64,000 nt of DNA from Archangium sp. (GTDB lineage Bacteria > Myxococcota > Myxococcia > Myxococcales > Myxococcaceae): NCBI RefSeq assembly GCF_031412795.1, contig NZ_JANODR010000017.1, positions 64,001 through 128,000 on the forward strand, read 5' to 3'. Below, piece after piece: positions 1,598 to 52,002 of this stretch. Each line of letters starts with the position of its first letter. The first letter of the stretch is position 1. The notes beneath the pieces are model-generated. The model saw only the letters and a list, made by a program, of their open reading frames with translations. It was not told where the DNA came from and ran no database searches. The position numbers were made by a program, and so were the translations under genes.

Positions 1598-1618
1598 GCC
1601 GTTCAGCCCCGACCCCGT

Positions 1619-5769: not shown

Positions 5770-5902
5770 TTACCGAGGGCCAAAAATCGGGTAGACCCTG
5801 GCGCCCCACCGTCCGTTGTAAGGAAGCGATGGAGGGGTGAGGACAGGTACGAGGCCCTGAAACGGGGGACTGTTGGGACCGGGAACCTCAGACGAACGGC
5901 TG

Positions 5903-6502: not shown

Positions 6503-7851
6503 AGCCGCAGGGTTCCCATGCGAACGAGGATCGGCTGCTGGACTTCGCCTATGGCGAGCTGCCGCCGTCCGAGGCCCGGGTGATGGAGCAGCACGTGCTG
6601 GGGTGCTCGCGCTGCTCCGAGGCGCTCGACGGCATTCGAGGCGTGCGCACCACCATGTCGCGGCTGCCGCTGCACTCGGCGCCGGAGGCGGGACTGGAGT
6701 CGTTGCTGGCCTACGCGCAGCAGGCCGCGCGCCGGTCCGCGGCGGGCCCCGAGCCCGCGCCCCGCTGGTGGCGTCGCCTGCTGGCGCCCGCGCTGAGCAT
6801 GGCGGCGCTGGGCGTCTTCGGCATCGTGGTCGTCCAGGTGAACCGCTCGGTGGACCTCAGCCCCACGCTCACCACCAAGAAGGAAGCCCCGGCGGAGATG
6901 GCGATGCGCCCGGAGCCCGCGAAGAACGCGCCGCTGCCGATGACCCAGGCCGTGCCCGCCGCCGCGGCCCCCTCGGCCCCCTCGCCCGAAACCCAGGTGC
7001 TCCACCAGCAGATGGACAAGCGCATGCAGGCTGAAATGCGCACCCCTCCTTCGAAGAAGGCGCCCAAGGTGATGCGCCGCGGGGAGTACTCGGACTGGTC
7101 CAACGCGGGCGCGGGCAGCGCGGGTGGCTTCCCGGACAAGAAGGAGGAGGCCGCGAAGTCCAAGGACGGGCTGGCCTCCAGCGGAAGGACCCGGAACACC
7201 CTGGCCACGGCGCAACCCGAAGCCGCCCCCGCGGGCAACGTGGCTCCAGCGGATGCGGAGGAGTCCCGGGTCGCCGAGGCCGCGTCCGCGCCCATGCCCA
7301 GCGCGCCCCAGCAGGTGGCGCAGTACACGCCGCCGTCCAGCCCGGCGCCGCGGGCGAAGAGCTCCGCTTCACGTACGTCGTCGAAGGGGAGCATGGCGGA
7401 CGCTGACGACGTGGCGCTGGCCCCCGGACGCGACCAGCTGCCGATGCCCGCCGAGCCGCCACCTCCTCCCGCCGCGCAGGCACAGGGGGTGGAGCGGGAA
7501 GCCAAGGCGGACGTCGTCGCGCGCAAGTCCGAGGCGAAGCCCGCCACCGCGAGCAGTGCCCCGTCTCCGACGGAGCTGCTGCGCCAGGCGGACATCGCCA
7601 ATCGCTCGGGGGACAGGGCACAGGAGTCCGCGCTGCTGCGTGGGGCGCTGTCCGCGGGCGTGAGGGGGAGTCAGCGGGTGGAGACGCTCTCTCGGCTGTG
7701 TGAGGCGGAGCTGGCGCTGGGCCGCCGGCAGAACGCCCTGGAGTTTTGCAAGCGGGTGATGTCGGAGGCGCCCGGCTCGAGCGAGGCGCGCGTCGCGCAG
7801 CGGCTGCTGGAGCGCGAGCTGGCGTCCGAGGCGGACGCGGCCAGGCAGTAG
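6499..7851 (+). CDS. Anti-sigma factor, ZAS-like zinc-finger N-terminus, single TM, Pro/Ala-rich periplasmic region and TPR-like C-terminus
   Basis: ATGA overlap with the sigma factor stop. HVLGCSRCSEAL (H-x3-C-x2-C) anti-sigma motif. TM segment LLAPALSMAALGVFGIVVV. Confidence 0.7.
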   Translation: MKPQGSHANEDRLLDFAYGELPPSEARVMEQHVLGCSRCSEALDGIRGVRTTMSRLPLHSAPEAGLESLLAYAQQAARRSAAGPEPAPRWWRRLLAPALSMAALGVFGIVVVQVNRSVDLSPTLTTKKEAPAEMAMRPEPAKNAPLPMTQAVPAAAAPSAPSPETQVLHQQMDKRMQAEMRTPPSKKAPKVMRRGEYSDWSNAGAGSAGGFPDKKEEAAKSKDGLASSGRTRNTLATAQPEAAPAGNVAPADAEESRVAEAASAPMPSAPQQVAQYTPPSSPAPRAKSSASRTSSKGSMADADDVALAPGRDQLPMPAEPPPPPAAQAQGVEREAKADVVARKSEAKPATASSAPSPTELLRQADIANRSGDRAQESALLRGALSAGVRGSQRVETLSRLCEAELALGRRQNALEFCKRVMSEAPGSSEARVAQRLLERELASEADAARQ

Positions 7852-7854: not shown

Positions 7855-8616
7855 TCAGTGCGAGCCGTGCCCCTCCGCCTCGGTAGGAGGAGGCGGCGGC
7901 AGGTCGGGGTTGTAGGCGCCGCTGAGGATGAGGAACTCTCCGCCAGGCTGCTTCAAGCGCGAGGCCTCGCCCTCGGGCGAGATGCCGACCGCGTGGATCT
8001 CATAGGCCGCGCCGCCCTCCAGCACATAGACGAGCAGGGTGCCGGGAGGAGCGTCCGCGGGGAGCGCGTCGGGCGAGGCCACCTTCTGGAGGCGGAAGGG
8101 CAGGGCGCCGAAGGAGCGTGTGTGGATGGTGGTGGGCTGGCCCTGGGTGAGCTGCGTGAGGGCCTGCCGCCAGGAGTCCTCGTCCTCGGGGATGGAGCCA
8201 TGCTTCTGCAGCTCGCTCACGGTGCGGCCGTGAAGCTCGCGAGCCACCCGGAGGACCTTCAGGTTGGCGGCATCGGAGTTGCGCCCCACGGCGGGGCCCT
8301 CCCGGTTTGCCCAGGTGGCGAGCGGGACGGCGGCGAGGATGAGCCCGGACCAGAGGAGGTGGGCGCTTCGCGCGCGCACGGCCTGCACGAGGACGACGCT
8401 CAGGCCCACCAGCGCCATGAGCGCGGCGATCACGAGCAGGAGCCGGGGCGGCGTTCCCGGACTGTAGGGCTGGAGCTGTGAGCGGGCGAGGTGCCGCAGC
8501 TCAGGCCAGGCTCCCACCAGGGTGATGGCGGCGAACCCGGCGAAGACGAGTGCGTGCAGCACACGGAGCGGCAGCGGGGAGGGCTGCCGCGAGGCGGTGG
8601 AGGACGACTTCTTCAC
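7855..8616 (-). CDS. Inner-membrane protein of unknown function, last gene of the pilin operon
   Basis: Three hydrophobic helices. Its ATG overlaps the pilin stop (ATGA on the minus strand). Its stop lies 3 nt from the convergent anti-sigma stop. Confidence 0.5.
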   Translation of the reverse strand: MKKSSSTASRQPSPLPLRVLHALVFAGFAAITLVGAWPELRHLARSQLQPYSPGTPPRLLLVIAALMALVGLSVVLVQAVRARSAHLLWSGLILAAVPLATWANREGPAVGRNSDAANLKVLRVARELHGRTVSELQKHGSIPEDEDSWRQALTQLTQGQPTTIHTRSFGALPFRLQKVASPDALPADAPPGTLLVYVLEGGAAYEIHAVGISPEGEASRLKQPGGEFLILSGAYNPDLPPPPPTEAEGHGSH

Positions 8617-8828
8617 GGGAACGGCAGGTTCAGCACCATGTAGAACGAGTCGTAATAGACCTGGTACGCCCGGAGGAACAGGTTGATGACGTTCCCCCTG
8701 CCGAACACGTCCGAGCTCAGCATCAGCACGAGCGCGAGGACGAGGATCCAGTTGATGAAGGAGTACTCCACCATGGCCTGGCCACGGGGGTGACGGCGGA
8801 GCTGCTTGAGGGTCGCGGGGCTCTTCAT
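8613..8828 (-). CDS. Flp/Fap-type (type IVb/c) prepilin, 71 aa
   Basis: MKSPATLKQLRRHPRGQAMVEYSFINWILVLALVLMLSS contains the Flp motif G/xxxxEY followed by a hydrophobic helix. GGAGGA Shine-Dalgarno (minus-strand coordinates 8840-8835) lies 6 nt before the ATG. The ATG overlaps the upstream gene stop. In the six-frame track this gene appears only as the tail of an artefactual 339-aa ORF. Confidence 0.65.
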   Translation of the reverse strand: MKSPATLKQLRRHPRGQAMVEYSFINWILVLALVLMLSSDVFGRGNVINLFLRAYQVYYDSFYMVLNLPFP

Positions 8829-9646
8829 GGGCGGTCCTCCTGCGAATCGGCTTCGGGCTCCGGCGCGGCGTCCGGATCCGGTTGCATCCAGGCCGGCAGG
8901 TTGCTGGCCGGCTCCAAGGTCATCTTCTTGTCGCCCGGGGCGGGCAACACCATGCGCGGCCTGGCGTCCACACCGTAGTCGCGCACCTCCATCGTATACC
9001 GGACGGAGGGGAATTCGATCTTCGCCAGGCGGAGCAGGGGAATCTCCCGGCTCATCCAGTAGCGCTTGAGGACGAGGTTGCCGCGGTAGATGACCTCCAT
9101 GGGCTCGGCCGTCACGGTGCCGGCGAGCGTCATGAGGCGCGCGGGCTTGCCGCGCTTGACGACGGTGTCCTTGCCGGCGGCGGTCTGCGCCGCGGACGGG
9201 GCGGCGCCGGGGCGGGTCGTCTCCGAGGGCTTCTCCTTGCCGGACTCGCTGAGGAAGTATGGCATGGCGTCCTTGTCCACCTCCTGGAGCTTCTCGAAGC
9301 CCTGGGTGACGAACAGCCGGGAGATGCCCTCGGGGCGAATGCCCGTCTCGCGGGCCACCAGCATGAGGAACTGCCCCATGGGGGCCTTCATCGCCGGGTG
9401 CAGGCCGAACTCCACCTCCAGCCACACCGCGTCGCGGTTCTGCGCGTCCTTCTGCTCGCTGACGACGGCCATGCGCATGAAGCCCTGACGGACTCCATCC
9501 ATCTGGTACGTCACCCACTCGCCCACGCGCGCGTCCAGCTGCGGGGGGGCGGCCTCGAAGAGCATCCGCCCCTCGGTCGACATCTGCGGCTGCGCCGGAG
9601 CGGCTCCCAGCAGCGTCAGGGTCAGGGCACACACCAGCGCGCTCAT
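8825..9646 (-). CDS. Secreted protein of unknown function (signal peptide) encoded between minor pilins and pilin
   Basis: Start MSALVCALTLTLLGAAPAQP is signal-peptide-like. The 5' end overlaps the preceding gene by 4 nt and the 3' end overlaps the pilin start by 4 nt. Confidence 0.55.
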   Translation of the reverse strand: MSALVCALTLTLLGAAPAQPQMSTEGRMLFEAAPPQLDARVGEWVTYQMDGVRQGFMRMAVVSEQKDAQNRDAVWLEVEFGLHPAMKAPMGQFLMLVARETGIRPEGISRLFVTQGFEKLQEVDKDAMPYFLSESGKEKPSETTRPGAAPSAAQTAAGKDTVVKRGKPARLMTLAGTVTAEPMEVIYRGNLVLKRYWMSREIPLLRLAKIEFPSVRYTMEVRDYGVDARPRMVLPAPGDKKMTLEPASNLPAWMQPDPDAAPEPEADSQEDRP

Positions 9647-10419
9647 GGCTTCTTCTCCTTCACGAGGCCCTGGCGCATGGCGGCCTCGCGCGCCTGGCGC
9701 ACCGCGTCCGCGTTGGGCATGCCATCCGGCCGATCCGTCCCCACCCACGACTGGGAGACGGCCACCCGAGCGCTCTCCAGCTCCACCAGCGTGGTCATGG
9801 ACTGCTCGGGCCCGCGCGCGTACTCGAGCACCAGGGTGCGCTGCCCATCCAGCTTGCCTCCGGACTCACGCACCGGCTTGTAGCCCGCGCTGGTGTACTT
9901 GTTGGCCAGCTCCTGGCGCACCTCATCCATCGTGCGCTCCACGATCTGCGTGCTGTGCCGCGAGCCGCCCGCCTCGTCTCGCGAGCCCACGTCCGCGCTG
10001 AAGAGCGGGCCCTCCACGCGGATCATCTTGTCCTGCCCGGCGGAGGGCGGCTTCTCGTACAGCCAGAGATCCTTGAGCACGGTGAAGCCCACCGTCTTGC
10101 CCATGTGCTTGCGCAGCACCACCGCCCGCTGCAGCCCCTCGCGGGTGAAGAAGGCGGCGACGACTCCCTCCTCCTCCAGGTCCCCGTCGACGACGACGGG
10201 GTAGCCCTGCTTGTTCCAGTACTCGGCGAAGTACTTCGCCACCTTCTCCATGGAGTCCTTCGTGGTGAAGTACGCCATGCGGTGGTACTGGCCGTTGATC
10301 AGCAGATCATTGCCGATCCGCGTGTGGGCGGTGCCCGGGTACACCGCGAGCTCCTGCTCCGCCCATGACGGAGAGGCCCACAGCGACACCAGGAGGAGCG
10401 TGAGGATCGTTACTCGCAC
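9643..10419 (-). CDS. Secreted protein of unknown function (signal peptide)
   Basis: MRVTILTLLLVSLWASPSWAEQ signal peptide. Overlaps the upstream TadE-like gene by 10 nt. Confidence 0.55.
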   Translation of the reverse strand: MRVTILTLLLVSLWASPSWAEQELAVYPGTAHTRIGNDLLINGQYHRMAYFTTKDSMEKVAKYFAEYWNKQGYPVVVDGDLEEEGVVAAFFTREGLQRAVVLRKHMGKTVGFTVLKDLWLYEKPPSAGQDKMIRVEGPLFSADVGSRDEAGGSRHSTQIVERTMDEVRQELANKYTSAGYKPVRESGGKLDGQRTLVLEYARGPEQSMTTLVELESARVAVSQSWVGTDRPDGMPNADAVRQAREAAMRQGLVKEKKP

Positions 10420-11552
10420 GTGATCTTGTTCTTGTTCTTGTCTTTGTTGGTGCTGGGATCCATGGCGGGCGTGTTGGGCATGTCCGCCATCTGGTTCTTG
10501 CAGCCCATGAAGTGCTCGCCGCGCGACTCGAACATCTTGATGTAGAGCGACGAGGCGTACGCGGCGGTGTCACGGAAGGGCGCGGTGTCGAAGCAGCGCT
10601 GCGGATCCTCGTCGAGGCCCGGGTACTTGTTCACGTTCTGCAGACCCGGGTGCGAGGGGTGCGAGGGCGTGTTGCAGTCCTGGCCGCCCGTGCCCGGCGT
10701 GTAGTTGTGCGCTACCACGAAGGTTCCCATGAAGTCCGGCAGGAAGAAGTTCGTCACCGAGCTGATGCGGTCCAGACCGATCTGGCTCAGGTAACCACTT
10801 ATACCAAGGAACTTCATCCGGCCCACCTGACGGAACATGCCGTGCTCCGAGCCACCGTCGTGCACGCCTGCTCGCTTGGGCTTCACGAGCGCGTCACCGC
10901 CGTCGGGCAGGTGCCAGCCGTTGGCGATGAGCGTGTAGCGGTTGCCGATCGGCAGGTTGCTCAGGTCTCGGCCACCCCAGTTGTCCACGGAGTAGAAGCC
11001 GCGCGACTCGCGCTGCAGGTAGCGACGGGGCAGCAGCAGCGACGCCAGGCTGCTGTTGACCTGCACCTGCACCTGGCCCTTGGTGTTGAACTTGAAGTGG
11101 TTGAGGAAGAAGTTGTAGCCCTTGCCGATCGCGCTGGACACCTCGGCGCCCGCACCGCCCGAGGGCATGACCCAGCTCAGGTCGATGCCCTGCACCGCCT
11201 GATTGGTGATGCTCACCTCCACCGGCGAGGGGCGCAGCATGATGGCGTAGCTGCCCCCGTTGGGCTCCAGGGAGTTGTAGTCCTTGTAGCGCTCGTTGGC
11301 CTCTTCCACCGTGGCCTGCATGGCGGTGGTGAAGGCCTTGTCGTGGTCGGCCTCGCCGTAGTCGCTCAGCGCGTAGCTGGTCATCTCCCAGGCCACGTAA
11401 CGCGAGGCCTCCTGGAGCTTGATCTTCGCGAGGACGATCTCCGTGAGGAAGATGCTGAACATCAGGATGGAGGTCAGCAGCGGCACCACGAGCGCGAACT
11501 CGACGGTGGCGGCACCGCGCCGGGAGCTCTTCTGTAGGCGATTGCGGAGCAT
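10410..11552 (-). CDS. TadE-like minor pilin/pseudopilin with large C-terminal domain (~380 aa)
   Basis: N-terminus MLRNRLQKSSRRGAATVEFALVVPLLTSILMFSIF is the TadE-like signature (GxAxVEFAL..P). ATG at 11552 is chosen rather than the ORF-track start at 11657. Confidence 0.7.
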   Translation of the reverse strand: MLRNRLQKSSRRGAATVEFALVVPLLTSILMFSIFLTEIVLAKIKLQEASRYVAWEMTSYALSDYGEADHDKAFTTAMQATVEEANERYKDYNSLEPNGGSYAIMLRPSPVEVSITNQAVQGIDLSWVMPSGGAGAEVSSAIGKGYNFFLNHFKFNTKGQVQVQVNSSLASLLLPRRYLQRESRGFYSVDNWGGRDLSNLPIGNRYTLIANGWHLPDGGDALVKPKRAGVHDGGSEHGMFRQVGRMKFLGISGYLSQIGLDRISSVTNFFLPDFMGTFVVAHNYTPGTGGQDCNTPSHPSHPGLQNVNKYPGLDEDPQRCFDTAPFRDTAAYASSLYIKMFESRGEHFMGCKNQMADMPNTPAMDPSTNKDKNKNKITCE

Positions 11553-11560
11553 GGCGGGCC

Positions 11561-13645
11561 TCAATGGGTGATGATCTTCGCCGGCGCGTCCTTGACGGCC
11601 GCGGGCAGCGCGTTGGCCAGCTGGTTGACGAGCGGCAACGACTCCTTGCCCTGCCACACGGCCGCCAGACGGGGCCGCCAGTAGGGGTTGAAGAAGTTGG
11701 GGTGCTCGGTCCAGTTGCCGGGCCGGTGGTAGTACGTCTGGCCGCGCGAGATGACGCTCATGCCCGAGGCCACGGAGAAGCCGGCGACCTCCAGCTTCTT
11801 GCGGTCGTTGTCCAGCTCCAGCGTCGCCGAGCCGCCGAAGTTGAAGGTGAGGCTCGAGCTGCCGTTGAGCCGGGACACGTCGTTGTGCGTGGCGCCCGTC
11901 GGATCGGCCCCCGTGTTGTGCAGCTCCTCCGAGTCCTTGTTGAGCATCACCCAGGCGGAGGGCTGGTTGAAGTCATGCTCGCGCTTGGCGGCCTGGTTGA
12001 TGCTGGCCTCGCCCTTCTTGGCCTGACCATTGTTGCAACTGCTGCACGAGCCGCCGCTGCCGCCGCCCGAGCTGTTGCCCCCCGGGTTGAGGCCCGCGCA
12101 GTCCCGCGCGTAGTCGCCCGGCTCGAAGTGGGGGAAGGGCGCCAGGCCCTCCCACGGGTGGTTGTTGTCCCGATCGTCGATGCGGACGTTGGCCGAGTAC
12201 ACATCCACCGAGAAGGGGCAGAGCCAGTCCGGCACGAAGGGGACCACGCACACCTCGTCCTTGTAGAGGCCCACGTTGGTGTCCGCCCTGCTGGCACCGC
12301 CGCTGTTCCTGAAGATGACCCGCCAGTGGATGCCGTTGCGGCGCAGATCCCTGTCGCTCATGGACCAGATGCTGGGCTTGAGCATGTCGTTGGGCTCCTC
12401 GCGCGGATCGCCCCAGCAGTGCCTGTAGTCGCGCTTGTCGTTGAGGATGCCTCCGGGCTCCTTGGGGCAGCTGAAGGGGTTGATCAGACCGATGTTGGAG
12501 GGGCCGATCTTGATGTAGTAGGTGTCGTCCGCGCCGATCACGTCACCCTGGGCCATCATGCCCATGGGGCTGCCGGGCGGATCGCGGTGCTCGCGGATCT
12601 TGTTGCGGCCCGTCCTGGGGCTCGCGGTGCCGTAGCCGAGCCGGTAGGTGAGCATGCGCGTCTGGCCCCACTTGGGGAAGCTGTTGAGCATGCTCTCCAG
12701 CGGCTGGAGCCAGCTGGGGATGGGCAGCAGGTCGCCCAGCTTGCGCGAGGTGACGAACGTCTCCGGGCAGATGCCCGAGCTGGCGTTGCAAGGGAAGCGC
12801 GTGGCGTTGCTGATGCCGCCCATCACGCGCTTGGCGCGCGAGACCTTGTCCCGCTCGTCGCGCTTGGTGGGATCCAGCGCGTCGAAGGGCTTGTACTTGC
12901 CCGTGAGCACCTGGCCGGGCGCGACGGTGGTCTCGTCGTAGTGCGTGCGGTTGAAGAGACACTGGTTGATGAGGCCCGCCAACGTCTGGGGGATGAACGA
13001 GTCCACGTGTGGATCGTTGGCCGCGATGATGGTGTTGGAGGTGCCCATCACGTAGGACGAGGAGGCCATCATCACCGCCACGGCCGCGCCTGACATGACG
13101 GCATTGAGCAGGCGATGGCCTGGGACCACCACCTTTCCGATGGCCCGGTCGATGAAGTCCATGCCCTGCTTCAGGAGGAGCAGCATCTTCTGGAGCACGG
13201 TGAAGATCGTGTTGATGACCCTCATCAGGGCTCCGATCCACGGCAAGACGTCCAGCACGGCGCAGATGATCTTCCATCTGCCCTTCCGGCTGTCCTTGGG
13301 GAAGCACGGGCCGATGGTGCGCATGAACCCGTAGATGTCCGTGAGGAAGGCCTGGACGAAGAAGATGAACGAGTTCAGCGACTGCCAGAGCATCGCCGAC
13401 ACGTAGTGCGACACCTGGGTGCGGTTGGTGAACGCGTAGAAGTTGAAGGCGCGCGCCTCCATGGCGGCCGTGGAGTAGGCCGCGGCGTCCGCCGTGTTCT
13501 GCAGGCGGATGCGCTCGTGCACGTTGTGCCCGATGTTGACGGTGGTGAGGAGCGCGATGCTCAGGATGAGCATCAGCAGACAGGCCATCACGAGCGCCTG
13601 TCCTTCCTGGCGCTGGAGGCTGCGACGAAGAGCGCGGGTCATCAT
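11561..13645 (-). CDS. TadG-like protein (Tad_N N-terminal domain), 694 aa, Cys-rich C-terminal region
   Basis: QEGQALVMACLLMLILSIALLTTVNIGHNVHERIRLQNTADAAAYSTA matches the Tad_N (TadG-like N-terminal) pattern. Gly/Ser/Cys-rich loop NSSGGGSGGSCSSCNNG. No VWA motif was recognised. Confidence 0.7.
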   Translation of the reverse strand: MMTRALRRSLQRQEGQALVMACLLMLILSIALLTTVNIGHNVHERIRLQNTADAAAYSTAAMEARAFNFYAFTNRTQVSHYVSAMLWQSLNSFIFFVQAFLTDIYGFMRTIGPCFPKDSRKGRWKIICAVLDVLPWIGALMRVINTIFTVLQKMLLLLKQGMDFIDRAIGKVVVPGHRLLNAVMSGAAVAVMMASSSYVMGTSNTIIAANDPHVDSFIPQTLAGLINQCLFNRTHYDETTVAPGQVLTGKYKPFDALDPTKRDERDKVSRAKRVMGGISNATRFPCNASSGICPETFVTSRKLGDLLPIPSWLQPLESMLNSFPKWGQTRMLTYRLGYGTASPRTGRNKIREHRDPPGSPMGMMAQGDVIGADDTYYIKIGPSNIGLINPFSCPKEPGGILNDKRDYRHCWGDPREEPNDMLKPSIWSMSDRDLRRNGIHWRVIFRNSGGASRADTNVGLYKDEVCVVPFVPDWLCPFSVDVYSANVRIDDRDNNHPWEGLAPFPHFEPGDYARDCAGLNPGGNSSGGGSGGSCSSCNNGQAKKGEASINQAAKREHDFNQPSAWVMLNKDSEELHNTGADPTGATHNDVSRLNGSSSLTFNFGGSATLELDNDRKKLEVAGFSVASGMSVISRGQTYYHRPGNWTEHPNFFNPYWRPRLAAVWQGKESLPLVNQLANALPAAVKDAPAKIITH

Positions 13646-13649
13646 GGGT

Positions 13650-14627
13650 TTACAGGCCCCAGCTGGGCTTCAGGTGCATCAGCCACTTGTAGTAGAAGTT
13701 CGACTGCATCCGCATGCTGTAGGTGGCCGTCAGCGGGATGAAGTAGCGCTTGCCGCCGATGAGGCCCGACAGGATGGGGATGTCCCCGCTGGCCACCGCC
13801 CACAGCACGGCCATCTCCACCTGGTAGAGCGTGTTGTAGCCGCGCTCGTGCCGGATGCCGCGGATGGGCACGAACTTCACCTGGCTCATGCCACCGCTGC
13901 GGTGGGTCATGCTCGTGTTGCGCTGGAGCGTGGGCCGGTCGATGGCGCCGTACAGCGACACCCCGGCGTTGGCCGCCCACCACGCGGTGAAGATGACCCA
14001 GTTGGCGAAGGGCACCTTCAGCTCGTACCAGTAGCGCAGGCGGATGCTCAGCACCGTGGCCTTGCGGTACGTCTCCTCGCCGTCGTCCGGAATCGACAGG
14101 TTGAAGAACTTGGCGATCTTCTGCTCCAGCTCCGGCACCTGCGGGTAGGCGTCCGGTCCGTCGAAGTCCAGCTCCTTCCAGTTGTAGCCCGTGCGCAGCT
14201 TCCACACGCTCCCGATGGAGTCGTACCAGGACGGGTTCACCGTATCGATGCGCACCTGGCCGAACAGGTTGGAGCCGTTGACGGTGGCCGGGATGATCCC
14301 GTTCTTGTTGGGCCACGCCAGCAGCTGCAGCGCCTCGTCATAGGCCTGGGCGATGGCCCACGTCTTTCCCAGCTCGAAGAGGGAGTCGGTGCGGCCCATG
14401 GTGGGCAGCAGCGCGATGATGGCGGCGTCCTTCATGCGCTCGTTGCTGCCGTTCCACACGATGCCCGTGCGCGCCGCGCTGTACGCCGCGTACTCGGTCA
14501 TGATCTTCGCGTGCTGCATCATCGTCAGCTGGATGATGCCCAGGCACATGAAGGTCATGAGCGGCAGCACCAAGGCGGATTCGACGGCGGCCTGACCTGA
14601 TTCCCTGGATTTGACGGGAGTAAGCAT
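13650..14627 (-). CDS. TadE-like minor pilin/pseudopilin (325 aa), first gene of the minus-strand operon
   Basis: ESGQAAVESALVLPLMTFMCLGIIQL is a TadE-like N-terminus. A 283-bp divergent intergenic region lies upstream. Confidence 0.7.
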   Translation of the reverse strand: MLTPVKSRESGQAAVESALVLPLMTFMCLGIIQLTMMQHAKIMTEYAAYSAARTGIVWNGSNERMKDAAIIALLPTMGRTDSLFELGKTWAIAQAYDEALQLLAWPNKNGIIPATVNGSNLFGQVRIDTVNPSWYDSIGSVWKLRTGYNWKELDFDGPDAYPQVPELEQKIAKFFNLSIPDDGEETYRKATVLSIRLRYWYELKVPFANWVIFTAWWAANAGVSLYGAIDRPTLQRNTSMTHRSGGMSQVKFVPIRGIRHERGYNTLYQVEMAVLWAVASGDIPILSGLIGGKRYFIPLTATYSMRMQSNFYYKWLMHLKPSWGL

Positions 14628-14910: not shown

Positions 14911-15726
14911 ATGCTGAAGGGTAAGACTCCGCTCGTGATCGCTTTGGCGCTCGGCCTGTTGGCCGGCATCATCGCGTGGTCCGCCATCAAGAAGAAGGAG
15001 GCGGACGTGCGTCGTGGCTGGAACCTGGTGCCCGTGGTCGTGGCCTCCCAGGACATCCCCGAAGGCACCATCATCACCTTCGACATGATCAACCAGCGCT
15101 CGGTGCCCGAGCAGTTCGTCACCTCGTCGGTGGTGAAGCCGGAGTCGGCCACCTACGTGGTGGGGCAGAAGGTGCTGGTGGCGCTGCAGTCGGGAGATCC
15201 GCTGCTGTGGAGCCAGTTCGAGACCACGAAGGCCGCCGAGCGCCTGTCCACGCGCGTGCAGAAGAAGGTGCGCGCCGTCACGATCGAGGCCAAGTCCACC
15301 ACGTCGGTGGGCGGCTGGGTGCGTCCCAATGATCACGTGGACGTGGTCGGCACCTTCCGCGACCCGCAGACGGAGGAGCAGGTGGCGGTGACGCTGCTGC
15401 AGAACGTGATCGTCCTGGCCACGGGCAAGATCACCGGCACCACCAACGTCAACCTCATCCCGGAGAGCCAGCGCGAGTACAACAACATCACGCTGATGGT
15501 CATCCCGGAAGAGGCCGAAATCCTCATGCTGGCCACGGAGCTGGGCAACCTCACGCTCTCGCTGCGCAACGAGGAGGACGTGGACATGATCGAGGAGCGC
15601 GGCCGCGCCACCATCAGCACGCTGCTGTCCGGCGAGCGCACCCGCGTGCTCGAGCAGAAGCGTCGCGAGATCATCCAGATCATCAAGGGCAACGGCGAGA
15701 AGAGCGCCGGCGCGGGTCCCCAGTAG
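14911..15726 (+). CDS. cpaB: CpaB/RcpC-family Flp pilus assembly protein
   Basis: GGAGG lies 11 nt before the ATG. N-terminal TM LVIALALGLLAGIIAW, followed by a SAF-like segment and an RcpC beta-domain (GDPLLWSQF, VRPNDHVDVV). Confidence 0.8.
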   Translation: MLKGKTPLVIALALGLLAGIIAWSAIKKKEADVRRGWNLVPVVVASQDIPEGTIITFDMINQRSVPEQFVTSSVVKPESATYVVGQKVLVALQSGDPLLWSQFETTKAAERLSTRVQKKVRAVTIEAKSTTSVGGWVRPNDHVDVVGTFRDPQTEEQVAVTLLQNVIVLATGKITGTTNVNLIPESQREYNNITLMVIPEEAEILMLATELGNLTLSLRNEEDVDMIEERGRATISTLLSGERTRVLEQKRREIIQIIKGNGEKSAGAGPQ

Positions 15727-15770: not shown

Positions 15771-16616
15771 ATGCTGGCCGGAATCGTTCTACTTCTCGTC
15801 ACCGGGTCGGTCTTCTTCTTCAGCCTGGTGATCTTCACCGTCCTGGCGAAGGCCTACGAGCAGTACCAGGAGCGGTACGTCGTCAAGTCGATGAACGACT
15901 TGAGCGACATGTTCCTGTTCGTGGATGCCCGGCAGTTGCTGGTGCTCAACATCGCCAGCATGTGCTTGATGGGCATCCTGTCGTACATCATCTTCAACCC
16001 CATCCTGTGCGTCATCGCCACGGTGTTCGGCTTCTTCCTGCCGATCATGCTGGTGAAGCACTACCGGGCGCGGCGCATCAAGCGCTTCAACGTGCAGCTG
16101 GTGGACGCGCTGCAGGCCATGGCCAACGCGTTCAAGGCGGGTCTGACCTTCCCGCAGGCCATCGAGCACGTGGCGCGCGAGGCGCAGCCGCCCCTGTCGC
16201 AGGAGTTCGGGCTCTTCGTGAAGGAAGTGAAGCTGGGCGTGCCGCTGGAGGAGGCCCTCATCAACATGGGCCGCCGGGTGGGCAGTGACGACCTGGAGCT
16301 GGTCGTGGTCGCCACCAACATCGCGCGCCAGCTGGGCGGCAACATGGCGGAGATGTTCGAGACCATCTCCAACGTCATCCGCGAGCGCTTCCGCCTCGAG
16401 GGGAAGATCGACGCGCTCACCTCCCAGGGCAAGCTGCAGGGGTGGGTGGTGGCGGCCATGCCGGCCATCCTCGGCATGGTGCTCAACTACATGCGGCCCG
16501 ACCTGATGGAGCCGATGATGGACCACTGGTTCGGCTACATCCTGGTGACGATCATCGCCATCATGGAAGTGCTGGGCGTGCTCATCATCCGGCGCATCGT
16601 CAACATCGATATCTGA
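15771..16616 (+). CDS. tadB: TadB-like inner-membrane platform protein (T2SS F family)
   Basis: T2SSF-type core LVDALQAMANAFKAGLTFPQAIEHVAREAQPPLSQEF flanked by N- and C-terminal TM helices. Confidence 0.8.
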   Translation: MLAGIVLLLVTGSVFFFSLVIFTVLAKAYEQYQERYVVKSMNDLSDMFLFVDARQLLVLNIASMCLMGILSYIIFNPILCVIATVFGFFLPIMLVKHYRARRIKRFNVQLVDALQAMANAFKAGLTFPQAIEHVAREAQPPLSQEFGLFVKEVKLGVPLEEALINMGRRVGSDDLELVVVATNIARQLGGNMAEMFETISNVIRERFRLEGKIDALTSQGKLQGWVVAAMPAILGMVLNYMRPDLMEPMMDHWFGYILVTIIAIMEVLGVLIIRRIVNIDI

Positions 16617-16625
16617 GGAGCTGTC

Positions 16626-17516
16626 GTGAGCGACGTCCTGACCTACATGTTGATGGGGGGCTCGGCGCTGATGTTCGCGGCGGCCGCGGGCTTCCTCGGC
16701 TTTGGCGTCTACCAGAACTACCTCGAGCGCTTCCTGTCGGAGGTGCGCGACGAGTCCGCTGGTGGCGTCAAGGGCCTGGGCTCGGTCACCATCCGCAAGC
16801 TGGGGGTGATCAACCGCAAGCTGATGTGGCCCGGCTACGAGTCCAAGGTGCGCCGCAACCTCATCAAGGCCGGCGAACCCGATGGCTTCAAGCCCGAAGA
16901 CATCATGGCGATGCAGGAGATCAGCGCCGTGGTGGGCCTGCTGGCGGGCCTCATCCTGGTCAACGGGATTGGCGAGAACCTCGGCTGGTCGCTGCTCTTC
17001 GCCCTGTTCGGCATGTACTACCCGCTCATCTGGGTGAGCGATCAGGTGAAGAAGCGCCACCTGCAGATCTCCCGGGCGCTGCCCTACAGCCTGGACCTGC
17101 TGACGCTGTCGGTGGAGGCCGGTCTGGACTTCACCGCGGCGCTGGCCAAGGTGGTGGAGAAGGGCAAGGCGGGCCCGCTGCGCGAGGAGCTTCAGATCGT
17201 CCTCAAGCAGCTCAAGATGGGCAAGACGCGCGAGGAGTGCCTCAAGGCGATGATCGCCCGGGTGGACCTGGCGCCGCTCACCACCTTCGTCACCGCGCTC
17301 ATCCAGGCGGACAAGATGGGCACCAGCCTTGGCAAGGTGCTGCGCATCCAGTCCACGCAGCTGCGCATCGACCGCACCCAGCGCGCGGAGAAGCTCGCGG
17401 GCGAAGCGCCGGTGAAGATGCTCTTCCCGCTCATCGCCTGCATCTTCCCCACGGTGTTCATGGTGCTCTTCGGCCCCATCGTGTTCCAGTTCATGTTCGG
17501 AAACGTCGGCGGGTAG
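16626..17516 (+). CDS. tadC: TadC-like inner-membrane platform protein (T2SS F family)
   Basis: GTG start with GAGGAG upstream. LPYSLDLLTLSVEAGLDFTAAL T2SSF core. C-terminal TM helices. Confidence 0.8.
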   Translation: MSDVLTYMLMGGSALMFAAAAGFLGFGVYQNYLERFLSEVRDESAGGVKGLGSVTIRKLGVINRKLMWPGYESKVRRNLIKAGEPDGFKPEDIMAMQEISAVVGLLAGLILVNGIGENLGWSLLFALFGMYYPLIWVSDQVKKRHLQISRALPYSLDLLTLSVEAGLDFTAALAKVVEKGKAGPLREELQIVLKQLKMGKTREECLKAMIARVDLAPLTTFVTALIQADKMGTSLGKVLRIQSTQLRIDRTQRAEKLAGEAPVKMLFPLIACIFPTVFMVLFGPIVFQFMFGNVGG

Positions 17517-17522: not shown

Positions 17523-19154
17523 GTGGGCTGCCTGCTCACCATCTCCAAGGGGCTGCAGCAGGGGAGGGAGTACACCTTCGAGCAGCCCGAGCTGCACATC
17601 GGGCGCACCCCGGAGAACGACCTGGTGCTCCAGGATACCGGGGTGTCGCGCCAGCACGTGCGCATCTCGGAGCGCATGGGGCGCTACTACGCCCAGGACA
17701 TGGGCAGCTCCAATGGCACCCGGCTCAACGACGCGCCCCTCATCGGGGAGCGCGCGCTGAATGACGGGGACCGGCTCGCGTTGGGCGCCGCGGAGCTCGT
17801 CTTCAAGGAAGTGGTGAGCGACGAGGACGCCACCCGGCCCATGATGACGGTGAGCCCGGTGGTCGAAGACGACGCCACCCGCCCCATCAAGACGATGCGC
17901 CCGGTGGTACCGGTGGAAGAAGACGACGCCACCCGCCCCATCCGACGCAACCCCACTGGCGTCTCCTCGCTCGCGGCGGTGGAGCCCTCGGGCCCCCCGG
18001 TCCTGCACCCCGTGGACAAGGCTCCGGCTTCCGGCGGAGCGGGGGGCGCCCGCAGGGCGACGATGGGGCAGATGCCGCTCCCGCCGCCAGTGCCCCCTCC
18101 CGCGGCCCTGGCCCGGCCCGAGCCTCGCGCTCCCGCCCTCGTCGATGACGAGGCCCCCACGACGGCTCCCGTTGGCAAGTCCGAGTCCGCTCCCGCGTCC
18201 CCGGGCCTGTCCGCCGCGGACAAGGCCCGGCGTCGGCGCGAGCGGGGCGCCACGCTCGCGGGCCAGTTCTCGCTCTGGTGGTCCGAGCTGTCCGGAGCGG
18301 GGAAGGGCGTGCTGCTCGCCCTGGCGTGCTGCTTCGTGCTGGGCACGGCGGTGGCGCTCGAGGTCGTCTTCCGCCCCTCGGCGGGCGAGCAGGCGACCAC
18401 GGGTCCAGAGCCCACGGTGCTGGGCCTCCAGGTGGTGCCGGACTCGTTCGGCCTGGGCAACGACGTGAAGTGGTCCCAGCCGGACCTGAAGACCTTCGAC
18501 TTCGAGTTCGTCTCGCCCACCCGCGCCGTGGTGGTGGTGCGCTACCAGGCCAGCGGCATCTCCAAGGACGAGGTCTCCGTCTCCATCAACGCGGTGCCCG
18601 TGGGCTTCATCCCCGCCGACACCATCAATGCCTCGGAGCGGGAGGTGCAGCAGATCCTCTCTCCGGCTGTGCTCAAACGAAATGAGCGCAACCAGCTCGT
18701 CTTCGACAACGTGCACAACCCCCCCGGCCGTAACGGCTGGCGGGTGTGGAACCTGAAGCTGGAGATCATCCCCGTGCCGGAGCTGCCTCCGGAGAAGCTG
18801 CTGGAGACCGCGCGCGACTACGCGGCCCAGGCCCGCGCGTACTACGATCAGCGCGAGGTGGGTGCCGAGAACCTCTTCCGCTCCTGGGAGAGCTTCCGCT
18901 CGGCGTGGATCACCCTGGAGGCCCTGGACGAGAAGCCGGACCTCTACCAGGATGTGCGCTACATGCTGGGCCAGGTGGCGGTGGACCTGGACCACAAGTG
19001 CGGGCAGTTGATGCTGGATTTCAAACGGAACATCCAGTTCAAGGACAGGAAGCGGGCAGCCGCGGCACTGGCCAACGTCAAGACGCACTTCCCTACAGCG
19101 GCGCATCGCTGCCACAATCTGGCGGTCGAAAAAGCCAACGAGTACGGGCTGTAA
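17523..19154 (+). CDS. FHA-domain bitopic membrane protein with DDATRP repeats and ~280-aa C-terminal domain of unknown function
   Basis: N-terminal FHA domain (LHIGRTPENDLVLQDTGVSRQHVRI...SSNGTRLN). TM VLLALACCFVLGTAVALEVVF. The GTG start lies 7 nt after the tadC stop. Confidence 0.75.
   Translation: MGCLLTISKGLQQGREYTFEQPELHIGRTPENDLVLQDTGVSRQHVRISERMGRYYAQDMGSSNGTRLNDAPLIGERALNDGDRLALGAAELVFKEVVSDEDATRPMMTVSPVVEDDATRPIKTMRPVVPVEEDDATRPIRRNPTGVSSLAAVEPSGPPVLHPVDKAPASGGAGGARRATMGQMPLPPPVPPPAALARPEPRAPALVDDEAPTTAPVGKSESAPASPGLSAADKARRRRERGATLAGQFSLWWSELSGAGKGVLLALACCFVLGTAVALEVVFRPSAGEQATTGPEPTVLGLQVVPDSFGLGNDVKWSQPDLKTFDFEFVSPTRAVVVVRYQASGISKDEVSVSINAVPVGFIPADTINASEREVQQILSPAVLKRNERNQLVFDNVHNPPGRNGWRVWNLKLEIIPVPELPPEKLLETARDYAAQARAYYDQREVGAENLFRSWESFRSAWITLEALDEKPDLYQDVRYMLGQVAVDLDHKCGQLMLDFKRNIQFKDRKRAAAALANVKTHFPTAAHRCHNLAVEKANEYGL
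17820..17948 (+). repeat. Three tandem coding repeats D(E/D)DATRP(M/I)xT(V/M)xPVV inside the FHA protein gene
   Basis: gacga(g/c)gacgccacccg(g/c)ccc recurs three times at about 45-nt spacing. Confidence 0.6.
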
Positions 19155-19192
19155 GGTCCGGGCTCGAGCACGAAATGAAGTGGTGATCTGCC

Positions 19193-21007
19193 ATGTCGAA
19201 CGGTTCTCCCCCCACCCGTCGTCGCCCGACCTCGACCAACAGCTCGGCCGCGGGTTCCACCGACCCGCGCCCCGCGGTGCGCAAGACGGCCGCCGCGCCG
19301 GCCGTTCGGGAGCCTGTCCCGGTGCTGGGCACCAAGCTGGTGGTGTCCGCCGGCCCTCAAGCCGGTGCGGAGTTCGGGCTGGAGGATGGCGAGTACGTCA
19401 TCGGTCGCGCCAACGACAACCCCATCTGCATCCCGGACACCTCGGTGTCGCGCAAGCACGTGCTGGTGCGCCGCGTGGGCGGGGGCTGGGCGGCCAGCGA
19501 CCTGGGCTCCGGCAACGGCACCCTCATCAACGGCGAGCCCATCACCGATGAGGTGCCGCTGTCCCACGGCGACGTGCTCACGCTGGGCGACACGGAGGTG
19601 ACGTTCAACGACACCTCCAACGCCACGATGATGATGCCGATGCCCTCGGCGCCTCCGTCGCGTCCGGCCCGGGGTGGCTCGCGTCCCTCCGCTCCCGCCG
19701 CCGCTGCCGCTGCTCCCGCCGAGGCCGAGGAGGGGGGCGAGGCCGGTGGTGCTCCGCGTCGTCCGCCGCCCCGTCCCGAGTCCCGCGTGCGCCCGGGTCG
19801 TGGGGGTCGCGGTGCCGCCGCGCCGGATCCGGCGGCGCAGCAGCGCAAGAAGCGCCTGCTCATCCTCACCGCGGCCGTCTTCGTGATGCTCGTGGGCCTG
19901 CTGGCCATCATCAAGTCCAAGCAGCAGGAGGAGGCCGCGGCCCAGCTCGCCGCGGCGAAGGTCGCCCAGGAAGCGCGTGCTCAGCTCGCCGCCCTCTTCC
20001 AGGACGCCAAGAACCTCATCCGCGAGAACAAGTGGAAGGACGCCAAGGCGAAGCTGCTGGAGCTCCAGGAGGCCGATCCCGAGTACGTGCAGCTCGAGGA
20101 CTACCTGGCGCGCGTGGACAAGGAGATTCCCAACCAGGATGCGCTCGACGAGGCCAAGGCGGCGCTGGACAAGAACCAGCTCGGCCCGGCGGCGTCCGCG
20201 GTCAACAAGGTGGCCAAGGACACCCAGCTCTTCGAGCAGGTGCGCCTCGTGAAGCTGGGCCTCAAGGAGAAGGCCGACAAGCGCGTGCGGGAGGCCCAGG
20301 CGCTGATGGATCAGAAGCAGCTGGATCAGGCCAAGCTCGTCGTGGATGACGTGCTCGTCGCCGACCCCGAGCACCGCGATGGCAAGGTCATCTCCGAGCA
20401 GGTCAATGCCGCCATCGAGCTGCGTGATCGGCCCGCGCCCGTGGACCGCGGGCCCGCGCCCGTCCATCCGTGGGATCAGGCCGTGGACCGCTTCCGGGAT
20501 GGAGATCTCCAGGGCGCGGTGGCCATCGTCAACGCCTGCGCGGGCAAGAAGCCGCAGTGCAAGACGCTCATGGGCCAGATGACGGACTTCGGCAACCTCT
20601 ACAAGAAGCTGGAGGACCTGGACGCCAAGGGCCTGGGGCGGCTGCTGGACCTGGACAAGAAGATCACCAACGGTCGCGGTAGCAGCAAGATGGCGCGCAA
20701 CGCCGGAACGCGTGCCTCCAACATCTTCTTCCGCAGCGCCTCGGCGGCCAAGGCGTCCGGCCAGTACGGGCGCGCCATGGAGAACGCCCAGCGCGCCCTC
20801 CAGGCGGACCCCAGCCACGTCGGCGCCAACAACATCGCCAACGAGCTGCGGCAGAAGGCCAAGGACATCTACCTCCAGGCCTACACCATCCGCGAGAGCG
20901 ATCCCCAGGACGCCCTGCCCAAGTTCCGCGAGGCCATGAGCATGACCACGCCGGAGGACGAGACGTACCAGAAGGCCAAGTCGTGGATCGAGAAGCTCGA
21001 GCGATGA
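19193..21007 (+). CDS. FHA-domain bitopic membrane protein with Pro/Ala-rich linker and long helical/TPR-like C-terminal domain
   Basis: FHA domain (YVIGRANDNPICIPDTSVSRKHVLV...GSGNGTLINGEPI). TM LLILTAAVFVMLVGLLAII. The C-terminus is rich in helical repeats. Confidence 0.75.
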   Translation: MSNGSPPTRRRPTSTNSSAAGSTDPRPAVRKTAAAPAVREPVPVLGTKLVVSAGPQAGAEFGLEDGEYVIGRANDNPICIPDTSVSRKHVLVRRVGGGWAASDLGSGNGTLINGEPITDEVPLSHGDVLTLGDTEVTFNDTSNATMMMPMPSAPPSRPARGGSRPSAPAAAAAAPAEAEEGGEAGGAPRRPPPRPESRVRPGRGGRGAAAPDPAAQQRKKRLLILTAAVFVMLVGLLAIIKSKQQEEAAAQLAAAKVAQEARAQLAALFQDAKNLIRENKWKDAKAKLLELQEADPEYVQLEDYLARVDKEIPNQDALDEAKAALDKNQLGPAASAVNKVAKDTQLFEQVRLVKLGLKEKADKRVREAQALMDQKQLDQAKLVVDDVLVADPEHRDGKVISEQVNAAIELRDRPAPVDRGPAPVHPWDQAVDRFRDGDLQGAVAIVNACAGKKPQCKTLMGQMTDFGNLYKKLEDLDAKGLGRLLDLDKKITNGRGSSKMARNAGTRASNIFFRSASAAKASGQYGRAMENAQRALQADPSHVGANNIANELRQKAKDIYLQAYTIRESDPQDALPKFREAMSMTTPEDETYQKAKSWIEKLER

Positions 21008-36573: not shown

Positions 36574-36622
36574 ACGGGCCCCGCGGCCCGCTTAAACCCT
36601 TCGGGAGGGGTGGACAACACTC

Positions 36623-36949: not shown

Positions 36950-36952
36950 TCC

Positions 36953-48125: not shown

Positions 48126-48184
48126 GCGGACGCGGCCTCCGGGCCGCTCCGGCCGGAGGCCCCCTGCCCAGAAGGTCGTTCCCC

Positions 48185-51991: not shown

Positions 51992-52002
51992 GCCGGCCGG
52001 GT

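What the first reader, a model, noticed from the sequence alone, without database searches (positions are those of the whole stretch)
10410..14627. Three unusually large TadE/TadG-like pseudopilins (380, 694 and 325 aa)
Canonical TadE/TadF proteins are about 150-200 aa. Here each TadE/TadG-like N-terminal prepilin-like helix is fused to a large C-terminal domain. The 694-aa protein has a Cys- and Gly/Ser-rich region (SSGGGSGGSCSSCNNG). This suggests a bulky tip or minor-pilin complex, by analogy with T4aP minor pilins and PilY1, possibly mediating target-cell contact.
Basis: partly seen in the sequence, partly recalled or inferred. Interest (0 to 1): 0.6.

Follow-up and report, generated by a model that had tools for sequence, protein, structure and literature searches.

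The report
Kil predation-pilus Tip4 minor pilins

Summary
Three adjacent minus-strand genes (325, 694 and 380 aa) each begin with a prepilin-type helix that passes Pfam TadE/Tad thresholds. The rest of each protein matches no Pfam family.

They are orthologues of M. xanthus MXAN_4660, MXAN_4659 and MXAN_4658 (KilM4, KilN4, KilL4) at 63%, 45% and 45% identity over essentially full length. They lie in a syntenic copy of kil gene cluster II, with the adapter pilin KilK, KilB/CpaB, two TadB/C-like proteins and two FHA proteins.

Herrou et al. 2025 (PMC12075869) modelled these proteins as a spearhead-shaped heterotrimer, "Tip4", at the end of the Kil Tad pilus. Genetics showed that this tip primes pilus assembly and mediates contact-dependent prey recognition and killing. 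They also reported tip genes across Myxococcales.

An AlphaFold2 model of the 694-aa protein (pLDDT 70) shows the long helices plus β-scaffold described for KilN4. It has no solved structural relative and no VWA or lectin domain.

The Gly/Ser/Cys-rich stretch is a lineage-specific insertion, probably disordered, found in 5 of 47 orthologues.

The local peculiarities are minor. The seven-gene tip block is inverted relative to Myxococcus, as in Archangium and Cystobacter. Tip proteins diverge much faster than the machinery. Verdict: correct call, already known.

The parts
13650..14627 (-). kilM4 orthologue (325 aa), a TadE-like minor pilin and first gene of the tip operon. Leader ...SRESG/QAAVES. 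No Cys outside the N-terminal helix.
   Evidence: Pfam TadE 48.4 bits. 63% identity over 318 aa to M. xanthus MXAN_4660 (L001:8990-9979). Found upstream of kilN4 in 70 of 83 related loci.
11561..13645 (-). kilN4 orthologue (694 aa), a TadG-like large minor pilin. Leader RQEG/QALVMA. Long helices at residues 13-111 and 135-210, followed by a beta-scaffold. 8 invariant and 2 near-invariant Cys. A lineage-specific Gly/Ser/Cys insertion at about residues 520-540 (about window 12025-12085).
10410..11552 (-). kilL4 orthologue (380 aa), a TadE-like minor pilin with an extended C-terminal region. Leader SRRG/AATVEF. Four C-terminal Cys (293, 320, 351, 379) are all conserved in M. xanthus.
   Evidence: Pfam TadE 29.5 bits. 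45% identity over the full length to MXAN_4658 (L001:12094-13287). Cys positions.
9643..10419 (-). 258-aa protein with an N-terminal secretion-signal-like sequence and no assigned function. It is the orthologue of the M. xanthus gene that follows kilL4 (by position, MXAN_4657) and overlaps the kilL4 stop by 10 nt.
   Evidence: 53% identity to L001:13253-14062. No Pfam family. Conserved in related loci.
8825..9646 (-). 273-aa protein of unknown function. It starts at an ATG that overlaps the upstream stop codon (ATGA). By position it is the orthologue of MXAN_4656.
   Evidence: 46% identity to L001:14059-14868. ATGA overlap read. No Pfam family.
8613..8828 (-). kilK orthologue (71 aa), a Flp-type 'adapter' minor pilin. 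Leader ...HPRG/QAMVEY followed by a hydrophobic helix.
   Evidence: 57% identity to the 75-aa M. xanthus gene at L001:14865-15092, which by gene order is mxan_4655 = KilK. Sequence. Present in most related loci. No Pfam hit at E<=0.01.
7855..8616 (-). 253-aa protein of unknown function, the last gene of the block. Its start overlaps the kilK stop by 4 nt.
   Evidence: 40% identity to L001:15089-15835. No Pfam family.
14911..15726 (+). kilB (CpaB/RcpC homologue), transcribed divergently from the tip operon. The likely start is the ATG at 14911; the longest ORF starts at 14794.
   Evidence: TIGR03177 pilus_cpaB 196.6 bits. Pfam RcpC and SAF. 87% identity to the M. xanthus protein.
15771..17516 (+). 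Two TadB/TadC-like inner-membrane platform genes, the KilG/KilH homologues (15771-16616 and 16626-17516).
   Evidence: Pfam T2SSF 65.6 and 65.3 bits. 90% and 83% identity to the M. xanthus proteins.
17523..21007 (+). Two FHA-domain proteins (17523-19154 and 19193-21007) that close kil cluster II.
   Evidence: Pfam FHA and Yop-YscD_cpl. The same architecture occurs in M. xanthus, Cystobacter and Archangium loci.

Best explanation
The three genes encode the Tip4 minor-pilin set (KilM4, KilN4, KilL4) of the Kil system, the Tad-like pilus that predatory myxobacteria use for contact-dependent prey killing.

Proposed mechanism:
1. Each preprotein inserts into the inner membrane through its N-terminal hydrophobic helix. 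A prepilin peptidase (KilA in M. xanthus) cuts after the conserved Gly.
2. The three alpha1N helices bundle into a heterotrimer. KilN4 forms the backbone, KilL4 wraps around it, and the distal domain of KilN4 is the exposed extremity.
3. The Flp-type adapter KilK, encoded four genes downstream in the same operon, couples this complex to the first subunits of the major pilin. The tip therefore primes polymerisation and ends up at the far end of the pilus.
4. On contact with prey, the exposed and fast-evolving KilN4/KilL4 surface engages the prey envelope. This leads to motility pausing and prey death.

Shown here: gene reality, TadE/Tad N-termini, cleavage motifs, full-length orthology, synteny, the operon structure, and the fold class of KilN4 with no solved relative.

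Inferred from M. xanthus experiments and models: trimer formation, tip location, the priming role and the predation role.
For: HMM thresholds are passed for all three N-termini.

Orthology to M. xanthus: KilM4 63%, KilL4 45% and KilN4 45% identity, all essentially full length. MXAN_4659 is named in the database hit list.

Synteny with M. xanthus holds across about 21 kb: two MshEN proteins, two ABC ATPases, DUF2085, an ECF sigma and anti-sigma pair, the seven-gene tip block, then kilB, two T2SSF genes and FHA proteins.

A KilK orthologue with a G/QAMVEY leader is present in the operon. The seven genes are separated by gaps of at most 8 nt or overlap by 4-10 nt.

The M-N-L trio is found in 70 of 83 related loci, all from Myxococcota apart from a few assemblies with generic or evidently wrong labels.

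The AF2 model has two long helices plus a beta-scaffold, as described for KilN4 (versus the paper text). It has no PDB structural or sequence relative, which matches the paper's statement.

Ten conserved Cys in KilN4 and four in KilL4 fit the 'numerous predicted intramolecular disulfide bonds' of the paper and an extracytoplasmic location.

Against the co-directional (Myxococcus-type) loci, tip proteins diverge much faster (median 45% for KilN4, 43% for KilL4) than the machinery encoded beside them (85% KilB, 86% KilG). This is expected for an exposed recognition surface.

Functional evidence for the orthologues comes from PMC12075869 and PMC8460266.
Against: No experiment exists for this organism.

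The rest of the Kil machine is not in the window, so its presence in this genome is untested here. This includes the secretin, the ATPase, the prepilin peptidase KilA and the major pilin KilP, which lie in a separate cluster in M. xanthus.

Heterotrimer formation could not be modelled with the tools available.

The AF2 model is of moderate confidence (pLDDT 70.4; 89 residues below 50).

KilN4 lacks the Glu at +5 of the mature N-terminus. The M. xanthus protein lacks it too, so this does not argue against orthology.

In M. xanthus, single Tip deletions have weak phenotypes, so the individual contribution of Tip4 is partly redundant.
Confidence: 0.9

Rival explanations
1. They are ordinary Tad (tight-adherence) minor pilins that serve surface attachment or biofilm formation, not predation. 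The large C-terminal parts would then be adhesin modules.
For: Pfam classifies the N-termini as generic TadE/Tad, and the neighbours are generic Tad parts such as CpaB and TadB/C. The paper itself argues that TadE/F/G of non-predators form similar tips.
Against: Orthology and synteny are specifically with kil cluster II of M. xanthus, including the FHA proteins and KilK. Homologues are restricted to Myxococcota. No adhesin-type domain (VWA, lectin) was detected. The M. xanthus orthologues have a demonstrated predation phenotype.
Confidence: 0.05
2. The complex caps a short T2SS-like pseudopilus that works as a piston to expel predation effectors. Its main role would not be as a recognition tip on an extended pilus.
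For: Herrou et al. raise a T2SS-like delivery mode and a functional link to the needleless T3SS*. The three-subunit cap resembles the GspK-I-J tip of T2SS pseudopili (my own knowledge).
Against: KilP pili were seen extending at prey contact sites, and their formation depends on the Tips. Nothing in the sequence distinguishes the two modes. The two are also not mutually exclusive.
Confidence: 0.04
3. The ORFs, or their large C-terminal parts, are annotation artefacts or decaying pseudogenes.
For: High-GC genomes produce many long spurious ORFs.
Against: GC3 is 0.89-0.96 with normal GC1 and GC2. Full-length conservation holds across dozens of genomes with invariant Cys and motifs.
Confidence: 0.01

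Closest known systems
Tip4 complex of the Myxococcus xanthus Kil system (KilM4 MXAN_4660, KilN4 MXAN_4659, KilL4 MXAN_4658; Herrou et al., Nat Commun 2025, PMC12075869)
   Same: The gene order M-N-L is the same and the lengths are close (325/694/380 aa here versus 329/694/397 aa). Identity is 63%, 45% and 45% over the full length. The downstream genes are the same, including the adapter pilin KilK, and so are the flanking kil cluster II and housekeeping genes. KilN secondary-structure layout, Cys pattern and cleavage motifs also match.
   Different: The seven-gene block is inverted relative to kilB and the sigma/anti-sigma pair, as in Archangium, Cystobacter and Vitiosangium. The 243-aa gene that lies between the block and kilB in M. 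xanthus is absent. KilN4 here carries a Gly/Ser/Cys-rich insertion of about 20 residues that M. xanthus lacks. Nothing has been tested experimentally in this lineage.
Tip1, Tip2 and Tip3 paralogous KilLMN clusters of M. xanthus
   Same: According to the paper, they share the three-pilin spearhead architecture, with a variable KilN distal domain.
   Different: They are encoded at other loci, away from kil cluster II. This window's trio sits in cluster II and is therefore the Tip4 type. Sequence comparison with Tip1-3 was not done because their sequences were not fetched.
Canonical TadE/TadF/TadG (Aggregatibacter, Pseudomonas, Caulobacter CpaJ/K/L-type) Tad minor pilins
   Same: The N-terminal class-III prepilin helix is recognised by the same Pfam models (PF07811, PF13400). 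They are also encoded as a set within a tad locus.
   Different: The TadE-like members here are about twice the canonical size. The TadF model is not reached (17.6 bits versus a cut-off of 27.3). No VWA or other known C-terminal domain is found. No sequence homologues were found outside Myxococcota.
T4aP minor pilins with PilY1, and the T2SS GspK-GspI-GspJ pseudopilus cap
   Same: The functional analogy holds: a minor-pilin complex that primes polymerisation and sits at the fibre tip, with the largest subunit exposed.

Membership tests
Kil Tip4 minor-pilin complex (KilM4/KilN4/KilL4) | Full-length sequence orthology to MXAN_4660, MXAN_4659 and MXAN_4658 | tested here: met
   63%, 45% and 45% identity with E-values of 6e-155, 0 and 3e-114. 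MXAN_4659 is named among the hits of the 694-aa protein.
Kil Tip4 minor-pilin complex (KilM4/KilN4/KilL4) | Location in kil gene cluster II, next to kilB (CpaB), kilG/kilH (TadB/C) and FHA proteins | tested here: met
   Gene-by-gene synteny with M. xanthus. The tip block is inverted, as it is in Cystobacter and Archangium.
Kil Tip4 minor-pilin complex (KilM4/KilN4/KilL4) | Leader peptide with a prepilin-peptidase site followed by a hydrophobic alpha1N helix in all three proteins | tested here: met
   The motifs G/QAAVES, G/QALVMA and G/AATVEF are read from the sequence. TadE/Tad HMMs score above threshold. Actual cleavage was not tested.
Kil Tip4 minor-pilin complex (KilM4/KilN4/KilL4) | Adapter Flp pilin KilK encoded in the same cluster | tested here: met
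   A 71-aa ORF at 8613-8828 (-) is 57% identical to the M. xanthus 75-aa gene at the mxan_4655 position and has a G/QAMVEY leader.
Kil Tip4 minor-pilin complex (KilM4/KilN4/KilL4) | KilN has a distal domain of two long helices plus a beta-scaffold, with no structural homologue in the PDB | tested here: met
Kil Tip4 minor-pilin complex (KilM4/KilN4/KilL4) | The three proteins form an alpha1N-bundled heterotrimer that docks on the KilP pilus | not testable with these tools
   Only single-chain prediction is available. The claim rests on the AlphaFold models in PMC12075869.
Kil Tip4 minor-pilin complex (KilM4/KilN4/KilL4) | Required, redundantly with other Tips, for pilus polymerisation and contact-dependent prey killing | not testable with these tools
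   The genetic evidence exists only for M. xanthus.
Kil Tip4 minor-pilin complex (KilM4/KilN4/KilL4) | The genome also encodes Kil cluster I (secretin KilC, ATPase KilF, peptidase KilA) and the major pilin KilP | not tested
   None of these is in the 64-kb window. In M. xanthus they are at a separate locus. The source genome could not be identified: the exact-sequence look-up found nothing.
Canonical Tad minor pilins TadE/TadF/TadG | N-terminal TadE (PF07811) or Tad (PF13400) domain above the gathering score | tested here: met
   48.4, 36.4 and 29.5 bits against cut-offs of 22.9, 22.3 and 22.9.
Canonical Tad minor pilins TadE/TadF/TadG | TadE/TadF size of about 150-200 aa, and a match to the full-length TadF model | tested here: not met
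   The proteins are 325 and 380 aa. TadF PF16964 scores 17.6 bits against a cut-off of 27.3 and matches only profile positions 3-45 of 178.
Canonical Tad minor pilins TadE/TadF/TadG | A recognisable C-terminal module such as VWA in the TadG-class protein (common in TadG-like proteins; my own knowledge) | tested here: not met
T4aP PilY1 / minor-pilin tip | PilY1/PilC C-terminal beta-propeller domain or T4a minor-pilin families | tested here: not met

The most novel reading that the evidence does not exclude
Two readings go beyond what is published, and neither is excluded by the evidence.

(2) The Gly/Ser/Cys-rich insertion, found only in this sub-lineage, might be a rapidly evolving loop that alters prey range.
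Probability: 0.08. Interest if true: 0.6.

Novelty: already known. Interest (0 to 1): 0.2.

Why it matters
The biology is of real interest. A minor-pilin "spearhead" gives a Tad pilus its prey-recognition and killing function, and it suggests how TadE/F/G may customise Tad pili in pathogens. That case was made experimentally and by modelling in 2021 and 2025 for the M. xanthus orthologues, and the 2025 survey already reported tip4 genes throughout Myxococcales.

This window adds only comparative detail:
- a clade-specific inversion of the tip operon;
- a quantified contrast between fast-evolving tip proteins and slow-evolving machinery;
- a lineage-specific low-complexity insertion in KilN4.

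It does not open a new question.

Tried and rejected
- VWA, lectin or enzyme domains in the C-terminal parts: Pfam at E<=1 and NCBIfam give nothing.
- PDB sequence searches give only spurious hits at E>=0.046 (picornavirus VP2, antibody VH) or none.
- The afdb50 fold library was unavailable, so structural similarity to canonical TadG proteins was not tested.
- The Gly/Ser-rich stretch is not a DNA tandem repeat: TRF finds nothing there.
- Identifying the source genome: the exact-sequence look-up of the 325-aa protein found nothing. The best species-representative genome has only 73% KilN4 identity (Archangium sp. MAG). One metagenomic protein is 96% identical (P0001).
- A six-frame motif scan found no other TadE-like or Flp-like leaders of that type. 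It recovered only KilM4 and KilL4 (plus one chance match at about 62099) and missed KilN4 and KilK, so it is weak negative evidence. Pfam annotation found no further Tad components.
- Error to disclose: I gave 8825-9650 for the 273-aa gene, which is out of frame. The correct-frame scan is (8825-9748, no family), and the true start at 9646 was read.
Full report
**1. What is in the sequence**

The window has about 70% GC. Three consecutive ORFs lie on the minus strand between 10410 and 14627:
- 13650-14627, 325 aa;
- 11561-13645, 694 aa;
- 10410-11552, 380 aa from the ATG. A longer 415-aa reading from an upstream GTG would overlap the previous gene by 97 nt, and the orthologue alignment does not support it.

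Third-position GC is 0.89-0.96 with ordinary first and second positions, as expected for real genes in this genome.

Each protein begins with a short basic leader, a Gly, and a hydrophobic helix: SRESG/QAAVESALVLPLM, RQEG/QALVMACLLMLIL and SRRG/AATVEFALVVPLL.

Pfam places TadE on the 325-aa protein (48.4 bits, cut-off 22.9). It places Tad/PF13400 on the 694-aa protein (36.4 bits, cut-off 22.3) and TadE on the 380-aa protein (29.5 bits, cut-off 22.9). All three hits fall within the first 55-60 residues. Nothing else matches at E<=1, and NCBIfam adds nothing above its cut-offs.

**2. Context**

Divergently transcribed on the plus strand are:
- a CpaB/RcpC homologue (TIGR03177, 196.6 bits);
- two T2SSF-domain TadB/C-like proteins;
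- two FHA-domain proteins;
- then housekeeping genes: xseA, xseB, a response regulator, ispA, dxs and tlyA.

Four more tightly packed genes follow the 380-aa gene on the minus strand:
- 258 aa, with a signal-peptide-like N-terminus;
- 273 aa, starting at an ATGA overlap at 9646;
- 71 aa;
- 253 aa.

Junctions across the seven genes are gaps of 4-8 nt or overlaps of 4-10 nt, so they probably form one operon. The 71-aa product (MKSPATLKQLRRHPRG/QAMVEYSF...) is a Flp-type pilin.

Beyond that lie an anti-sigma (zf-HC2) and ECF sigma pair, DUF2085, two oligopeptide-type ABC ATPases and two MshEN-domain proteins.

The rest of the window encodes bactofilins, nadB, an SLT transglycosylase, Wzm/Wzt and glycosyltransferases. 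It contains no secretin, no Tad ATPase, no prepilin peptidase and no further pilins.

**3. Identification**

A database search with the 694-aa protein returned 195 hits at E<=0.001. The 120 listed are annotated Tad/TadG-like, and those carrying an organism name are myxobacterial. The best is 96% identical (an Archangium sp. metagenome bin). The list includes MXAN_4659 of M. xanthus DK 1622 at 45% identity and 100% coverage.

I fetched the M. xanthus locus and compared it gene by gene. Identities to the M. xanthus proteins are:

| Window gene | M. xanthus counterpart | Identity |
|---|---|---|
| 325 aa | 329-aa TadE protein upstream of MXAN_4659 | 63% |
| 694 aa | MXAN_4659 | 45% |
| 380 aa | 397-aa TadE protein downstream | 45% |
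| 258 aa | next gene downstream | 53% |
| 273 aa | next gene | 46% |
| 71 aa | 75-aa gene | 57% |
| 253 aa | next gene | 40% |
| CpaB | KilB | 87% |
| TadB/C-like (two) | KilG/KilH | 90% and 83% |
| ECF sigma | ECF sigma | 88% |

The literature names these genes. Seef et al. 2021 (PMC8460266) defined the Kil Tad-like apparatus for contact-dependent prey killing, with cluster II spanning MXAN_4648-4661. Herrou et al. 2025 (PMC12075869) assign mxan_4660 = KilM4, mxan_4659 = KilN4, mxan_4658 = KilL4 and mxan_4655 = KilK. By gene order, the window's trio is therefore KilM4-KilN4-KilL4, and the 71-aa gene is KilK.

**4. What is known about how it works** (from the papers, not shown here)

AlphaFold models place the three mature pilins in an interwoven heterotrimer called Tip4. 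Its base is a bundle of the three alpha1N helices. KilN4 is the backbone, KilL4 wraps around the others, and the distal domain of KilN4 forms the extremity. That domain has two long helices, a beta-scaffold and no PDB homologue. The authors predict numerous intramolecular disulfides.

Deleting all four Tip clusters abolishes KilP pilus polymerisation and prey killing, while any single Tip suffices. KilK is the adapter required for Tip1, Tip2 and Tip4. KilA matures Tip2, Tip3 and Tip4. Tip4 alone can kill prey without lysing it, independently of the needleless T3SS*. Tip genes were reported to be restricted to Myxococcota, with similar organisation across Myxococcales.

**5. Independent checks made here**

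(b) Cysteines. Eight Cys of KilN4 are invariant in 47 orthologues and two more are at 85-87%. The four C-terminal Cys of KilL4 are conserved with M. xanthus. KilM4 has none outside the N-terminal helix. This fits oxidised, extracytoplasmic proteins.

(c) The Gly/Ser/Cys-rich stretch. It is an insertion present only in the five closest relatives, with variable length and composition. Its two Cys occur in 2 of 47 sequences. Model confidence there is 35-37. It is not a DNA tandem repeat. It is best read as a recent low-complexity loop, not a defining feature.

(d) Conservation profile. The alpha1 region (residues 41-100) is the most conserved part, together with a C-terminal motif RGQTYYHRPGNWxExPNFFNPYWRPRLA (about residues 634-661). 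The most variable gap-free stretches are 141-160, near the helical hairpin, and 461-480.

(e) Distribution. A scan of one genome per species returned 80 loci. Those with an informative taxon label are Myxococcota, apart from one assembly labelled Comamonas that is evidently myxobacterial. The M-N-L trio is detectable in 70 of 83 loci. Most exceptions are contig ends.

(f) Evolutionary rate. Against the co-directional (Myxococcus-type) loci, median identity is 45% for KilN4 and 43% for KilL4. It is 63% for KilM4 and 59% for KilK. It reaches 85-86% for KilB and KilG. The exposed tip subunits evolve much faster than the machinery.

**6. Local peculiarities**

In M. xanthus and Hyalangium the tip block is co-directional with kilB. 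In the window the seven-gene block is inverted between the anti-sigma gene and kilB. The same inversion occurs in Cystobacter ferrugineus and C. fuscus, in Archangium gephyra, A. minus, A. lansingense and A. violaceum, and in Vitiosangium (13 of 41 complete loci). It is therefore a clade character, not a feature of this genome alone. The 243-aa gene that precedes kilB in M. xanthus has no counterpart here.

**7. Verdict**

Its interpretation, a bulky minor-pilin tip complex for target-cell contact, agrees with published genetics and modelling for the direct orthologues. The finding is a correct rediscovery of the Kil Tip4 complex in an Archangium-like genome. It is already known, and the additional details found here are comparative footnotes.

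Noticed in passing
window 7855-14627 (compare L001, L003-L017, L043, L069, L070): The whole seven-gene tip block (kilM4 through the 253-aa gene) is inverted relative to kilB and the sigma/anti-sigma pair when compared with Myxococcus, Pyxidicoccus, Corallococcus and Hyalangium. The same inversion is present in Archangium, Cystobacter and Vitiosangium genomes (13 of 41 complete loci).
   Followed up: yes
window 5873-7851 (+): An ECF sigma factor (209 aa) and a zf-HC2 anti-sigma protein (450 aa) flank the tip block in nearly every related locus, whichever way the block is oriented. The sigma is 87-96% conserved and the anti-sigma only 44-76%. They are an obvious candidate regulator of the tip operon, which I did not see discussed in the sections of the papers I read.
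   Followed up: partly
L040:2872-5037 (M. xanthus AM003); also L032, L039, L044: Several Myxococcus-group genomes carry a second, orphan KilN4-like gene. P0083 is 70% identical to MXAN_4659. The orphan has no kilM, kilL, kilK or kilB nearby. In L040 it sits near a glyoxalase, a TetR regulator and a terpene synthase. It could be a swap-in tip subunit.
   Followed up: partly
window 11561-13645 (-), residues 634-661 of the 694-aa protein: A near-invariant C-terminal motif, RGQTYYHRPGNWxExPNFFNPYWRPRLA, is the most conserved part of KilN4 outside the N-terminal helix. In the AF2 model, part of it (residues 640-654) has pLDDT below 50. It may only become ordered in the heterotrimer.
   Followed up: partly
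window 827-2752 (+): Two adjacent proteins carry an MshEN domain (a c-di-GMP-binding N-terminal domain of MshE-type ATPases) without an ATPase domain. They are conserved at the same position upstream of kil cluster II in M. xanthus and Hyalangium.
   Followed up: no
window 5206-5769 (-): A 187-aa ORF between DUF2085 and the ECF sigma gene has lower GC3 (0.79), no Pfam family and no counterpart in the M. xanthus locus. The Archangium MAG locus L005 has a 139-aa gene at the equivalent place. It may be a small lineage-specific gene or a spurious ORF.
   Followed up: no
L028 and L039 (BNCN01000007.1, BNCN01000022.1): An assembly labelled 'Comamonas sp. KCTC 72670' carries a complete Myxococcus-type kil cluster II, with 84-88% identical KilB and KilG. 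The record is evidently a mislabelled or contaminated myxobacterial assembly.
   Followed up: no
window 36229-37636 (+): Three tandem bactofilin genes (114, 108 and 227 aa) are followed by a 293-aa protein with no Pfam family. From memory, this resembles the M. xanthus bacNOP-padC arrangement.
   Followed up: no
window 45999-63467: A large polysaccharide cluster is present: a Wzm/Wzt ABC-2 transporter, a 1513-aa multi-glycosyltransferase with WsaF domains, and several GT2 and GT4 genes. It is probably the O-antigen locus.
   Followed up: no
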